UHGV virus genome: UHGV-0201657
Length of the DNA: 32,319 bases
From: a virus
Strand: one strand, 5' to 3'
This document shows, in pieces, positions 1 to 3,000 of this stretch. Position numbers: made by a program. Every line of letters begins with the position of its first letter. Within the stretch, counting starts at the first letter, position 1.

Positions 1-3000
1 GTGTTGATAACCTACAGAGGAAAACTACCGGGAATAATTACTGGTTCTCTGAAGACTCCACCGCTGGCCTGAAGACTTAGCATATCCAGGGATTTGAAAT
101 CGATAAACCCTGATAAATATCCATGAACACCAAAATCAAATACGGCCTGTCGGCTGCCGTTCTGGCGCTGATTGCCGCAGGTGCGCCTGCGCCTGAAATC
201 CTCGACCAGTTTCTGGATGAAAAGGAAGGTAACCACACCACAGCATACCGTGATGGTGCGGGTATCTGGACCATCTGCCGTGGAGCCACCCGGGTGGATG
301 GTAAGCCTGTTATTCCTGGCATGAAGCTGTCGAAGGAAAAATGCGACCGGGTTAACGCCATTGAGCGTGATAAGGCGCTGGCATGGGTGGAGAAAAACAT
401 CAGAGTGCCACTGACCGAACCGCAGAAAGCGGGCATCGCGTCATTCTGCCCGTACAACATCGGGCCTTCGAAATGCTTCACCTCAACGTTTTACCGGAAA
501 CTGAACGCCGGAGACCGGAAAGGTGCATGTGCTGAAATCCGCCGATGGATATATGACGGCGGCAGGGACTGTCGGAACCGCTCAAATAACTGTTACGGGC
601 AGGTATCGCGGCGTGACCAGGAGAGCGCGCTGGCGTGCTGGAGTATCGACAGATAAGCAGAATGTTCTGCTGAAAAATGCCGTTGACCAACGCGGACGGA
701 TAACACGAAATCCTGCGAACTGGCAAAACCTAAGTGAATAAAAGTAAAAACCCCGTTTGTTGGCAGCAAGCGGGGTTTTGTGTTTCTGACCTTGAATAAG
801 GCAAGGGAGAAATTATGGGTAGGGAGGTTCTTTCCCTGTGAGGAAGTATAAAAGATTCTTTCTGAGGTTGTCCATTATGAAAGGCATTGAGGTGGAGACG
901 CCAGCAAGTCTGGATTTAACAAGAGCGGCAGCTTTTGCCATTCGTATTGTGGCAATTGCTGTTCTGGTCTGGGCAATCCGTTGGTGGTGATATGAATCGT
1001 GTGCTGTATGGCGTGCTTATTGTCCTGCTGCTTGGTTGTGGATCGCTGTGGCTGGCAACAGACCATTACCGTGATAACGCCATCACCTACAAAGAGCAGC
1101 GAGATGATGCGAAGACAAAACTCAGCCAGGCGAACGCCACCATTGCTGACATACAGCAGCGCCAGCGTGATGTTGCTGCACTCGATGCCAGATACACCAG
1201 GGAGCTTGCTGATGCTAACGCGACTATTGAAAGTCTCCGTGCTGATGTTTCTGCTGGGCGTAAGCGCCTGCAAGTCGCCGCCACCTGTGCAAAGTCAACG
1301 ACCGGAGCCAGCGGCATGGGCGATGGAGAAAGCTCAGGACTTACAGCAGATGCTGAACTCAATTATTACCGTCTCCGAAGTGGAATCGACAAGATAACCG
1401 CGCAGGTTAACTACCTGCAGGAGTACATCAGGATGCAATGCCTCGATTAACAGAGCCAGCTCAATCGCTGGCCTTTTTTATGAGGAGAGATATAACCTGA
1501 ATCAATGCCAGTGCATTATCAACAAATGGATCACTGGGTAAGCTCGTTTGGTTTTAAATGTCCGTCGAGAATCAGATTGTGATTTTCCCGATGCAGAACC
1601 AGTGTGCCCATATAATCAGGTTTAAATCTCCATCCATTCATTTTTTTTGCAATTCTGGACAGACAGTGATTATGTGTGAAAATCACAGTAACATGATCTG
1701 ATTTTGATATTTTAAGGATATTATTTACTGCGTTATCATCACATGTCGATATGTCCGGAATAGTTGCTGTCTTACCTCCCGAAAAAAAAGTGGCTGTCTG
1801 CATTGTTCGGAGTGTGTCTGTAGAATAGAGACTGTAGTATGGAAACATTCTTCTGAATTTATCTCCATATTGTTGAGCTTTGTTAGCTCCGTTTACTGTG
1901 ATTCCCTCATGTGCTGAAAGACATATTCTTTGGGAGCGATCGCATCTTTCCCCATGCCGGATGAGAAAAATAATGGGATGTTTCTGGTTAATCTCAGTGA
2001 CATCGTTCACATCAAGTCTGACTGGAGTTCTTACAATGTATATGATGGATACAGAAACGATTATGACAAGTAAAAATATAAGAAGAGATTTTGTTAGCGT
2101 TTGATTTAACATATAAATTCCCTTGTCTGTGTTGAAAATGGGCATTATTATGCGTAAATCTTATGTAATCCTTAAGGATTGTCTGACGTGGTGATATGAC
2201 GCGAAATACAGTGGGTACACAGAATGCTGTGAACAACGACGAAATGGGCATTGGTAGCGGTACTGGTGCTTTTTTTATTGGTTGGTTGCTCAAGTCTTGA
2301 TAAAGCGCGTTAGCTTTTTGGTATTGCCTCTTAGGTCTGTAAAATTGCCGACGGTGTCCGGCAGTGCATGCAGGGCTGATCGTCTATGAGAACAGAATAT
2401 ATTGCTAAAAATGAAGTGTGCGTCAATGCTTATAAAGCATGCAATTCTGTATTTCTAACTATTCAATAAAATAAATTCTTTCTGTCGCAGTGAATATACA
2501 AATGTTGATCAGCGCTCGATGTGGCGACGGGTTTCTATATCAGGAGACTTTGGCATTTATCCGCGAGGCAGCCTATCTGGTGCTGTAGTGGAATGAAGCG
2601 GATATAACCTAAATAAGGTTAAACATTAATCAGACATGGCTCTGCTGTGTGAAATCTGAAAATTTACAGCAGTCATTGTGCATCAGTTTTTAACAGAGAA
2701 CGTCAGAAGGTGACATGGCAAAGCTGGACTGGAAAAAGCTGGAGCAGGCATTTCGACGCGAACATGTCAAAACCGGCATAAAGCTTCAGGACTGGTGCCG
2801 TCAGAACAATATCAGTTATGACACGGCTCGGCGGTACATTAAACTGCGCAAACACTCCCCCAGAAATACAGAGAAAAGTGCGCAGAAAAATGCGCAAATT
2901 GATGATCAAAAAAGTGCGCAGAAATCTGACGGCAACTCCAGTCATGACGAGCCTTCAGGCGATGATGGTTGTGATGAAAAATGCGCAAATTTGGCAGAAA

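What the first reader, a model, noticed from the sequence alone, without database searches (positions are those of the whole stretch)
877..990. Extra 37-aa membrane micro-ORF between endolysin and Rz
The endolysin is followed by a terminator-like hairpin and about 220 bp of spacer, then a short ORF with one hydrophobic helix that ends 1 nt before the Rz start. Lambda-type cassettes normally run S-R-Rz without such an insert. The peptide could be a lysis regulator or accessory spanin partner, or simply non-coding spacer.
Basis: seen in the sequence. Interest (0 to 1): 0.4.

Follow-up and report, generated by a model that had tools for sequence, protein, structure and literature searches.

The report
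Conserved tiny membrane-protein gene before Rz
The 37-codon ORF between the endolysin and Rz is a real gene under strong purifying selection; it belongs to a widespread, unstudied family of tiny phage membrane proteins, is probably made in two lengths, and usually sits between the endolysin and spanin genes.

Summary
ATG 877 to TGA 990 encodes 37 aa with one C-terminal hydrophobic helix. A terminator-like hairpin lies at 747-779, and the stop is 1 nt before the Rz ATG at 992.

It is not spacer. Two E. coli prophage lineages differ at 24 of 111 nt (codon positions 6/0/21), giving dN/dS of about 0.03. Homologues reach beta-proteobacterial and metagenomic phages. They fall in PHROGs 4493, 1115 and 3246, all "unknown function". 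Pfam, NCBIfam, PADLOC, PDB and the literature searches gave nothing.

The full 153-nt ORF is in 799 of 5,426 complete E. coli genomes, always annotated as hypothetical.

The gene probably starts earlier, at GTG 838 (50 aa). The 13-codon basic extension is conserved at protein level. The internal Met keeps its own GAGG: the Arg codon there is AGR in 9/9 lineages against 8/36 elsewhere. This points to two isoforms.

Most family members lie after an endolysin (several unrelated families) plus a hairpin. They abut an i-spanin or small lipoprotein gene within 0-3 nt. A minority lie in capsid, portal, tail or baseplate modules.

Function is unproven. My best guess is an autonomous late inner-membrane accessory, translationally coupled to Rz, and not a specific spanin partner.

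The parts
123..656 (+). Endolysin (lysozyme). Its Ala/Gly-rich hydrophobic N-terminus looks like a SAR-type signal anchor.
   Evidence: ORF; PF00959 at 1.5e-25; PGAP names it 'lysozyme'. The SAR reading comes from the sequence and was not tested.
747..779 (+). Intrinsic-terminator-like hairpin (15 pairs) followed by a T-rich tail. A similar hairpin precedes the family member in all 9 lineages read in full.
   Evidence: 7 terminator-like sites against 1.0 expected in the region, this being the longest; upstream sequences.
822..827 (+). GGGAGG, the candidate Shine-Dalgarno for the upstream start, 10 nt before GTG 838.
   Evidence: Sequence. Equivalent GGAG/AAGGA elements lie before the upstream start in L086, L089, L091, L092 and L093.
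838..990 (+). Long form of the micro-ORF (50 aa, MRKYKRFFLRLSI + the 37 aa). The N-terminal extension has a net charge of +5.
   Evidence: ORF. PHROG 4493 matches it at 1.4e-24 over profile positions 1-54 of 56. The extension is conserved at protein level with varied codons. GTG is replaced by ATG in L042 and L083.
864..867 (+). GAGG, the Shine-Dalgarno for the internal start at 877. It lies within the codons CTG AGG of the long form.
   Evidence: This Arg codon is AGG or AGA in 9 of 9 lineages, against 8 of 36 other Arg codons (Fisher p = 2.7e-5).
877..990 (+). Short form of the micro-ORF (37 aa; the reported finding; RefSeq WP_000675931.1). It has a single C-terminal transmembrane helix and ends in RWW.
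   Evidence: dN/dS is 0.026 against the second E. coli lineage. AlphaFold2 pLDDT exceeds 90 for the last 20 residues.
982..994 (+). Coupling junction TGGTGGTGA-T-ATG. The Trp-Trp-stop codons form an SD-like GGTGGTGAT immediately before the Rz start.
   Evidence: Sequence. In 27 of 34 non-redundant RWW-type members the next ATG lies 0-3 nt after the stop. The SD-like reading is inferred from the known 3' end of 16S rRNA.
992..1450 (+). Rz (i-spanin).
   Evidence: PF03245 at 7.8e-37; PHROG 13 'Rz-like spanin'.
1212..1397 (+). Rz1 (o-spanin) embedded in the +1 frame of Rz. It has the lipobox LLGVSAC and a proline-rich mature part. It is not annotated in the RefSeq record.
   Evidence: Translation; feature table. 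The lipobox and the resemblance to lambda Rz1 are read from the sequence.
1455..1472 (+). Terminator-like hairpin plus T-run directly after Rz.
2188..2313 (+). Remnant of a second family copy. Only its last ~9 nt (GTGGTGA) and the coupled ATG survive. A frameshifted copy of the 60-aa lipoprotein gene that follows the family member in the second E. coli lineage comes next.
   Evidence: Alignment to L067; ORFs.

Best explanation
The ORF is a genuine protein-coding gene. It belongs to a widespread, uncharacterised family of very small phage inner-membrane proteins (PHROGs 4493, 1115 and 3246). It has no promoter of its own and lies just downstream of a terminator-like hairpin. It must therefore be read from the late transcript that passes through the endolysin gene (inferred). 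It is probably translated from two starts. The long isoform starts at GTG 838 (50 aa); it carries a strongly basic 13-residue N-terminus that should hold that end in the cytoplasm. The short isoform starts at ATG 877 (37 aa) and lacks that anchor. Both share a single C-terminal transmembrane helix ending in RWW. Ribosomes finishing the ORF stop 1 nt before the Rz ATG, and the Trp-Trp-stop codons resemble a Shine-Dalgarno sequence. Rz translation is therefore probably coupled to it (inferred). What is shown: the ORF is coding and under purifying selection, the family is broad, its position is conserved, and the dual-start and coupling signatures are present. What is inferred: that the protein acts in the inner membrane late in infection as a self-contained accessory of the envelope-disruption step, for example by tuning holin triggering or membrane state. 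It is unlikely to act as a specific partner of Rz, because its subtypes do not follow the identity of either neighbouring gene.
For: Coding. The window lineage and the second E. coli lineage (L067) differ at 24 of 111 nt, at codon positions 6/0/21. dN/dS is 0.026, and frames +1 and +2 show pN greater than pS. Breadth. A HMMER profile search of 1.84 billion proteins gave 27 hits with a shared motif. A Silvimonas prophage carries a homologue at 55% identity. The full ORF is in 799 of 5,426 complete E. coli genomes. Dual start. The extension Y-K/R-K/R-F/I-F/L-(R)-L/M-R-L-S/T is conserved with varied codons. An upstream ATG, GTG or TTG with its own SD is present in all 9 lineages. The internal Met is universal and is preceded by NTG-AGG; the Arg codon there is AGR in 9/9 against 8/36 elsewhere, p = 2.7e-5. 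GTG has changed to ATG independently in two lineages. Position. Most of 44 distinct peptides lie after an endolysin and a hairpin. Six endolysin reference groups matched among the 44 peptides (PF00959 SAR type, GH108, M15, T4-like and others), plus a second lysozyme type and a 93-aa gene after the M15 enzyme in L087. These peptides lie 0-10 nt before Rz, a non-Rz i-spanin or a small lipoprotein. Coupling. In 27 of 34 non-redundant RWW-type members the next ATG is 0-3 nt after the stop. No promoter. No plus-strand sigma-70-like site lies between the hairpin and the ORF, and in distant homologues the hairpin-to-start spacer is only about 40 nt. Membrane helix..
Against: No experiment or expression data were found for any member. 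The protein's function is inferred from position only. About 8 of 44 distinct peptides lie outside lysis cassettes: after a capsid gene, before a portal gene, after a tail-fibre gene, in baseplate modules and before a tail chaperone. The endolysin-spanin junction is also a known hot spot for inserted genes; a methyltransferase and another small membrane ORF sit at the same junction in L216. Enrichment there could therefore reflect tolerance of insertion, not function. The sampled lineages are linked by recombination and are not independent. The dual-start reading rests on comparative signals alone. The upstream start in the window is GTG with a 10-nt spacing, and PGAP calls only the 37-aa form. 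Cassettes without the gene, such as K-12 Qin and, from my own knowledge, lambda, have complete lysis gene sets, so the gene is not essential for lysis.
Confidence: 0.5

Rival explanations
1. It is a small inserted membrane-protein gene unrelated to lysis. It rides in the late operon and acts on a host membrane target or on incoming phages, for example in exclusion or host modulation. It accumulates at the endolysin-spanin junction only because that junction tolerates inserts.
For: The gene is absent from related cassettes where R and Rz overlap. Its GC content is 46%, against 56% and 53% for its neighbours. Members occur in capsid, portal, tail-fibre, baseplate and tail-chaperone contexts. Peptide subtype does not co-vary with either neighbour. 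Other inserts use the same junction. Tandem paralogues occur in L088 and L089.
Against: There is no promoter of its own, and the hairpin-to-start spacer is too short for one in distant homologues. Expression in the lysogen is therefore unlikely; it would be made only late, when exclusion is of little use. Most distinct peptides are flanked by endolysin and spanin-type genes, although those neighbours belong to many unrelated families. PADLOC gave no match.
Confidence: 0.25
2. Its main role is in cis. It is a portable leader ORF that restores ribosome delivery to the downstream gene after a terminator hairpin has broken coupling with the upstream gene. The peptide itself matters little, or only serves to bring the mRNA to the membrane.
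For: A hairpin lies upstream in all 9 lineages read in full. The stop is 0-3 nt from the next ATG in 27 of 34 non-redundant members. The terminal TGG TGG TGA resembles a Shine-Dalgarno sequence placed before that ATG (sequence; inference from the 16S rRNA 3' end). The same unit sits in front of many unrelated genes.
Against: Amino-acid conservation covers the whole peptide. This includes the MK(N/D)G(L/I)E..AP motif and hydrophobic-for-hydrophobic changes in the helix, with near-saturated synonymous divergence. A pure coupler would not need this. The subfamily ending in ...ALKS is followed by a separate SD and a gap of 12-17 nt. Some members are followed by another hairpin and not by a gene.
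Confidence: 0.17
3. It is a type I toxin-like peptide: a small hydrophobic membrane toxin controlled by an antisense RNA transcribed from the opposite strand across its translation start region.
For: The peptide is small, hydrophobic and has a single helix. A minus-strand promoter-like site, TGGACA-18-TATACT (10 of 12 matches), lies at 874..845 and points toward the hairpin. Synonymous divergence is lower in 838-876 than in the rest of the ORF (pS 0.25 against 0.71).
Against: One promoter-like site equals the chance expectation of 0.9. The hexamers are not kept in the high-GC homologues. There is no plus-strand promoter for a toxin mRNA. Rfam gave no match above threshold. The lower synonymous divergence is equally explained by the internal ribosome-binding site. 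The gene lies in the sense direction inside late operons, tightly coupled to the next gene, which is unlike known type I loci.
Confidence: 0.05
4. It is non-coding spacer with a chance ORF.
For: ORFs of this size are frequent by chance: 50 ORFs of 20 aa or more occur in 3 kb. There is no Pfam or NCBIfam family.
Against: dN/dS is 0.02-0.06, differences fall at codon positions 6/0/21, and the alternative frames fail. Protein-level homologues exist down to about 30-55% identity in other bacterial classes. PHROG matches reach 1e-24.
Confidence: 0.01

Closest known systems
PHROG families 4493, 1115 and 3246 (phage proteins of unknown function); RefSeq WP_000675931.1 'hypothetical protein'
   Same: There are direct sequence matches. 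The 37-aa form hits PHROG 4493 at 5.5e-16 and the 50-aa form at 1.4e-24. Longer relatives hit PHROG 1115 at 1e-42. The protein is identical to the RefSeq entry in FORC_069 and EDL933.
   Different: Nothing differs; this is the family itself. It has no assigned function, no Pfam or NCBIfam model, and no paper was found.
Dual-start holin/antiholin pairs (lambda S105/S107, phage 21 S68/S71)
   Same: These are also small inner-membrane proteins in a lysis cassette. They also have two in-frame starts, and the longer product carries extra positive N-terminal charge that would change how the N-terminus sits in the membrane (established knowledge of lambda S).
   Different: The starts here are 13 codons apart, not 2-3. 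There is one C-terminal helix, not 2-3 helices. There is no charged C-terminal tail. The gene lies after the endolysin, and a recognised class II holin gene is already present upstream. No holin Pfam model matches. Some members lie outside lysis cassettes.
Two-component spanins Rz/Rz1 (i-spanin and o-spanin)
   Same: The gene is immediately adjacent to, and probably translationally coupled with, the i-spanin gene. It encodes a membrane protein.
   Different: It has no periplasmic coiled-coil domain and no lipobox. Its helix is at the C-terminus, not the N-terminus. It coexists with a complete Rz/Rz1 pair. It also occurs before non-spanin genes.
Morons of lambdoid phages (extra genes inserted between conserved neighbours, e.g. 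HK97 gp15, lambda bor)
   Same: It is present or absent between genes that are adjacent elsewhere. Its GC content is lower than that of its neighbours. It encodes a small membrane protein.
   Different: Classical morons carry their own promoter and a downstream terminator and are expressed in the lysogen (established description). Here no promoter is found, the hairpin is upstream, and the stop abuts the next gene's start.
Mobile regulatory cassettes that flank small ORFs in T4-type phages (promoter/stem-loop units; recalled from my own knowledge, no paper was read here)
   Same: A repeated hairpin-plus-small-ORF unit occurs in tandem and at many different gene junctions. The hairpins are near-identical in L088.
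   Different: Those cassettes are early promoter-stem-loop units flanking unrelated ORFs. Here the ORF itself is the conserved element, and it lies in late operons.

Membership tests
PHROG 4493/1115 small phage membrane protein family (uncharacterised) | Significant match to the family profile. | tested here: met
   PHROG 4493 matches at 5.5e-16 (37 aa) and 1.4e-24 (50 aa, profile positions 1-54 of 56). PHROG 1115 matches at 2.1e-11.
PHROG 4493/1115 small phage membrane protein family (uncharacterised) | The shared motifs derived here: a basic extension Y-K/R-K/R-F/I-F/L..R-L-S/T, an internal M-K-x-G-(L/I)-E, A-F-A-I-R in the helix, and a C-terminal (R/K)WW. | tested here: met
   The alignments and sequences show that the window sequence carries all four motifs.
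Holin / antiholin (dual-start type) | At least one transmembrane helix in a small protein encoded in the lysis cassette. | tested here: met
   Searches show the helix; searches show the cassette context.
Holin / antiholin (dual-start type) | Two in-frame translation starts giving products that differ in N-terminal charge. | tested here: inconclusive
   The comparative signals are strong: AGR codon in 9/9 lineages, p = 2.7e-5, and a conserved extension and upstream start. Translation itself was not observed.
Holin / antiholin (dual-start type) | A hydrophilic, highly charged C-terminal domain, and a match to a holin family model. | tested here: not met
   The protein ends in ...AIRWW directly after the helix. 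No Pfam holin family matched. A class II holin gene is annotated upstream of the endolysin.
Holin / antiholin (dual-start type) | Lethal, timed permeabilisation of the inner membrane, or inhibition of it. | not testable with these tools
   This needs induced expression and measurements of membrane potential and lysis.
i-spanin (Rz-like) | An N-terminal transmembrane helix followed by a periplasmic, largely coiled-coil domain long enough to reach the o-spanin. | tested here: not met
   The helix is C-terminal, only 3 residues follow it, and the total length is 37-50 aa. PF03245 does not match the peptide.
o-spanin / u-spanin | A lipoprotein signal with a lipobox cysteine. | tested here: not met
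   The peptide contains no Cys.
Moron (lambdoid phage inserted gene) | Inserted between genes that are adjacent in related phages. | tested here: met
   In K-12 Qin, rrrQ and rzpQ overlap with no insert. In the window they are 335 nt apart.
Moron (lambdoid phage inserted gene) | Its own promoter upstream and its own terminator downstream. | tested here: not met
   No plus-strand promoter-like site lies in 600-1600. The hairpin lies upstream, and the stop abuts Rz.
Type I toxin-antitoxin | An antisense or divergent small RNA gene with its own promoter overlapping the toxin mRNA. | tested here: inconclusive
   One minus-strand promoter-like site lies at 874..845, which is no more than chance. 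It is not conserved in distant homologues. There was no Rfam match above threshold.
Translationally coupled upstream ORF | The stop codon lies within a few nucleotides of the downstream start, and this is conserved across relatives. | tested here: met
   The window reads TGA-T-ATG. In 27 of 34 non-redundant members the next ATG is 0-3 nt after the stop. Coupling itself was not measured.

The most novel reading that the evidence does not exclude
The family is a previously unrecognised, widely conserved component of Gram-negative phage lysis cassettes. It would be a two-isoform, single-helix inner-membrane protein encoded between the endolysin and spanin genes. Its long (N-terminus held in the cytoplasm) and short (free N-terminus) forms would adopt different topologies. 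Together they would set the timing or completeness of envelope disruption. This would be the dual-start logic of holin/antiholin re-invented in an unrelated protein that acts independently of which holin, endolysin or spanin family the phage uses.
Probability: 0.3. Interest if true: 0.75.

Novelty: new variant of a known kind. Interest (0 to 1): 0.5.

Why it matters
Phage lysis of Gram-negative hosts is usually described with three functions: holin, endolysin and spanin. Further components continue to be described. Here a conserved gene sits between the endolysin and spanin genes in about 15% of complete E. coli genomes, including O157:H7 prophages. It recurs next to several unrelated endolysin and spanin families, and it has never been named or tested. 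If it affects lysis timing or Rz expression, it would also affect phage burst and, in Shiga-toxin phages, toxin release. The family is also a clean comparative example of a bacterial small protein under 50 aa with two conserved starts, which standard annotation reports in only one form. Finally, it shows how one mini-gene can be placed in front of many different late genes with a ready-made coupling junction.

Tried and rejected
1. Chi site. The C-terminal Arg-Trp-Trp codons spell the E. coli Chi sequence GCTGGTGG when Arg is CGC, in the orientation of the late genes. This is perfect in L059, L086, L088 and L089. I rejected it as the selected feature. Among 34 non-redundant members the codon is CGT 16, CGC 13, AGG 3 and AAR 2. 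The common E. coli forms use CGT. The window has no Chi at all in 32 kb.

2. RNA structure around the two start regions. Folds of four lineages were no more stable than shuffles, with z-scores from +0.8 to -1.7.

3. Rfam. The only hit was a sub-threshold rimP-leader match on the minus strand over the hairpin (26.8 bits against a threshold of 47). I treat it as a generic hairpin.

4. Programmed frameshift or readthrough fusing the ORF to Rz. The stop-to-ATG spacing varies from 0 to 3 nt, so the frame varies between lineages, and there is no slippery site. Rejected.

5. Plus-strand promoter between the hairpin and the ORF. None was found. TATAAA at 847-852 has no usable -35 element.

6. Known families. 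Pfam, NCBIfam, PADLOC and PDB sequence searches were all empty.

7. Literature. Searches used a 14-residue stretch of the peptide, the accession and PHROG identifiers, EHEC ribosome profiling (including the supplements of PMC5597208) and the spanin survey PMC6139136. None mentioned the gene.

8. AlphaFold2. The monomer model is one long helix and says nothing about function.

9. Technical failures. A profile-based locus search with distant members failed for lack of a conserved block and was replaced by a DNA pattern. That pattern forces TGAGG, so loci from it were excluded from the Arg-codon test.
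Full report
**What is there.**

The window opens with the lysis region of a lambdoid (Shiga-toxin-phage-like) prophage.
- The endolysin gene is 123-656 (PF00959).
- A 220-nt gap follows. It contains a strong terminator-like hairpin at 747-779.
- The reported ORF runs from ATG 877 to TGA 990 and encodes MKGIEVETPASLDLTRAAAFAIRIVAIAVLVWAIRWW.
- One base separates its stop from the Rz ATG at 992. Rz is 992-1450 (PF03245), with Rz1 embedded at 1212-1397.
- A second hairpin lies at 1455-1472.

The region is 100% identical to E. coli FORC_069 and 99.3% identical to phage GER2. PGAP already annotates the 37-codon ORF as hypothetical protein WP_000675931.1, also in O157:H7 EDL933. K-12 Qin shows the uninterrupted arrangement, with rrrQ overlapping rzpQ.

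**Is it a gene?**

An ORF of this size means nothing alone: there are 50 ORFs of 20 aa or more in 3 kb. Comparison with other sequences settles the question.

Among 86 related loci there are two well-separated E. coli prophage lineages. Over the 111 coding bases they differ at 24 positions, 6/0/21 by codon position. That is 19.5 synonymous against 4.5 non-synonymous changes, giving dN/dS of 0.026. The few replacements are I/L/V/A swaps within the helix. In the other two frames, non-synonymous change exceeds synonymous change. A third variant gives dN/dS of 0.028.

A profile search of 1.84 billion representative proteins found 27 relatives down to about 30-55% identity, all sharing one architecture. 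A species-representative genome scan found a homologue in a prophage of the beta-proteobacterium Silvimonas terrae. A DNA pattern taken from distant members hit at least 120 more IMG/VR contigs.

The family corresponds to PHROGs 4493, 1115 and 3246, all listed as "unknown function". Pfam, NCBIfam, PADLOC, PDB and the searched literature contain nothing on it. The full 153-nt unit is in 799 of 5,426 complete E. coli genomes. Its 3' 60 nt is in 1,308 genomes, with up to four copies per genome. "Non-coding spacer" is refuted.

**Gene boundaries and two starts.**

The frame is open from GTG 838, which is preceded by GGGAGG at 822-827. PHROG 4493 aligns the 50-aa form over profile positions 1-54 of 56.

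I examined nine lineages obtained by protein-level searches only. In these, the 11-13 codons before the internal Met encode a conserved basic motif: Y-K/R-K/R-F/I-F/L-(R)-L/M-R-L-S/T. The codons vary (TAT/TAC; AAA/CGT/CGA/CGC/AGA; TTC/TTT/ATT/ATC). Each lineage has an in-frame ATG, GTG or TTG preceded by a Shine-Dalgarno-like element. GTG 838 has become ATG independently in one member of each E. coli lineage (L042 and L083).

The internal Met is also universal, and it is always preceded by NTG-AGG, which reads as GAGG. This lies 6 nt upstream of the Met in the distant members and 9 nt upstream in the two E. coli lineages, which carry an extra Ile codon. The Arg codon at that position is AGG or AGA in 9 of 9 lineages. 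Other Arg codons in the same genes are AGR in only 8 of 36 cases (Fisher p = 2.7e-5). This holds even in high-GC phages.

The simplest reading is that both starts are used. One gives a 50-aa form whose first 13 residues carry a net +5 charge. The other gives a 37-aa form whose N-terminal segment has a net charge of -1. This is comparative inference; translation was not observed.

**Architecture of the unit.**

In every lineage read in full, the ORF follows a GC-rich hairpin with a T-run, 40-60 nt upstream. In the window there is no plus-strand sigma-70-like promoter between hairpin and ORF. In distant members the spacer is too short to hold one. The gene must therefore be read from the upstream late transcript (inferred).

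At the 3' end, 27 of 34 non-redundant members ending in RWW have the next gene's ATG 0-3 nt after the stop. The terminal TGG TGG TGA-T matches 8 of 9 bases of GGAGGTGAT, the complement of the 16S rRNA 3' end (established knowledge). It may therefore serve as the ribosome-binding site of the next gene.

The GC content of the unit is 46%, against 56% for the endolysin and 53% for Rz. This is consistent with an insertion.

**Context.**

Among 44 distinct family peptides, most lie after an endolysin. Six endolysin reference groups matched, including the PF00959 SAR type, GH108 with PG_binding_3, M15 peptidase and a T4-like lysozyme in Silvimonas. In L087, the M15 enzyme is followed by a 93-aa gene before the family member.

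These peptides lie directly before one of the following:
- Rz with embedded Rz1;
- a non-homologous i-spanin with an embedded lipoprotein;
- one of two unrelated 60-aa lipoproteins.

A minority lie elsewhere:
- between a major capsid gene and an apparent endolysin, as three tandem hairpin-plus-ORF units (L088);
- as two tandem units before a portal gene (L089);
- after capsid-associated genes (L090);
- after a tail-fibre gene (L091);
- between baseplate genes (L093-L095, L147);
- before a tail chaperone (L188).

In Silvimonas the gene follows the endolysin but precedes a PLD-like gene.

Peptide subtype does not track either neighbour. The L145 peptide is closest to the L104 peptide, although one precedes a non-Rz i-spanin and the other Rz. 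The L195 peptide is closest to those of L107 and L140, which precede a lipoprotein.

Two conclusions follow. The family is clearly enriched at the endolysin-spanin junction. It also behaves as an independent module and not as a co-evolving partner of Rz.

**Mechanism.**

I commit to the following.

With high confidence:
- It is a real late-operon gene for a tiny inner-membrane protein with a single C-terminal helix.
- It is conserved by purifying selection.

With moderate confidence:
- It is made in two isoforms.
- It is translationally coupled to Rz.

As my best guess for function (about 0.3-0.4 for this part): it is a self-contained accessory of envelope disruption that acts in the inner membrane, for example by tuning holin triggering or membrane state. 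The basic extension of the long form would fix its N-terminus in the cytoplasm, while the short form is free to insert differently. This resembles the logic of lambda S107/S105.

It is not a member of the holin, spanin, classical moron or type I toxin families, because defining features of each were tested and not met (see the membership table).

The rivals, in order of weight:
- a passenger membrane gene unrelated to lysis;
- a mainly cis-acting coupling leader;
- a type I-toxin-like peptide, supported only by a single chance-level antisense promoter-like site;
- spacer, which is refuted.

**Ideas that did not hold.**

- The RWW codons equal the Chi sequence when Arg is CGC. Codon counts (CGT 16, CGC 13, AGG 3, AAR 2) and the absence of any Chi in the window make this incidental.
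- RNA folds of the start regions are no better than shuffles.
- Rfam gave only a sub-threshold hairpin match.
- The variable stop-to-ATG spacing rules out a conserved frameshift fusion to Rz.
- The AlphaFold2 model is a single helix.

**Verdict.**

The ORF is a gene, and an association with the lysis cassette is real. A specific role as a spanin partner is not supported. The coding region most likely begins at 838.

The gene is already annotated as hypothetical, so the locus itself is not new. What is new is the recognition of a broad family with a conserved position, a dual-start signature and a coupling junction. Interest is moderate (0.5), and higher if a lysis-timing role is shown.

Noticed in passing
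window 2188-2420 (+): This is a remnant of a second copy of the same family. Only the last ~9 nt (GTGGTGA) and the coupled ATG survive. A frameshifted copy of a 60-aa lipoprotein gene (PHROG 7528, unknown function) follows. Everything upstream has been replaced by the minus-strand gene at 1531-2145.
   Followed up: partly
window 1531-2145 (-): A low-GC (37%) histidine-phosphatase gene lies between Rz and the small terminase subunit, on the opposite strand. PGAP calls it 'lipopolysaccharide core heptose(II)-phosphate phosphatase' (Ais-like). It looks like a lysogen-expressed inserted gene that could modify host LPS.
   Followed up: no
L067 1008-2798 (also L140, L107, L087): A second class of lambdoid prophages has two holin-family genes, then a GH108 or M15 endolysin, then the family member, then a 60-aa lipoprotein (MTRKHW...LVGC...). 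No Rz-like gene lies before Bor and Nu1. How these phages breach the outer membrane is unclear. A different 60-aa lipoprotein occupies the same place in L143, L168 and L171.
   Followed up: partly
L088 2930-3905; L089 240-740: Metagenomic high-GC phages carry two or three tandem units, each made of a near-identical terminator hairpin plus a small membrane-protein ORF of this family or a diverged paralogue. This suggests duplication or shuffling through the repeated hairpins.
   Followed up: partly
L216 1671-2944; L003 2805-3153: The endolysin-Rz junction of E. coli prophages is highly polymorphic. It can hold none, one or two family members. It can also hold a different 43-aa membrane ORF (PHROG 4906), a DNA methyltransferase, chimeric peptides such as MSDKLIML...AAAFAIRIV...RWW, truncated 28-aa forms, and frameshifted copies.
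   Followed up: partly
window 979-987; L059, L086, L088, L089: The terminal Arg-Trp-Trp codons spell the Chi sequence GCTGGTGG when Arg is CGC. The window has CGT, which is one mismatch, and has no perfect Chi anywhere in its 32 kb. Codon counts across the family indicate coincidence.
   Followed up: yes
window 874..845 (-): A minus-strand sigma-70-like site (TGGACA-18-TATACT, 10 of 12 matches) is antisense to the ORF's 5' extension and points toward the hairpin. It is no more than chance and is not conserved in distant homologues.
   Followed up: partly
window 1212-1397 (+): The embedded o-spanin gene Rz1 (61 aa, lipobox LLGVSAC) is not annotated in the identical RefSeq record or in phage GER2.
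   Followed up: yes
proteins P0013, P0016, P0026: Some database entries are 73-aa fusions in which the family member's stop is lost and translation runs into the downstream region. These are either natural stop-loss variants or sequencing errors.
   Followed up: no
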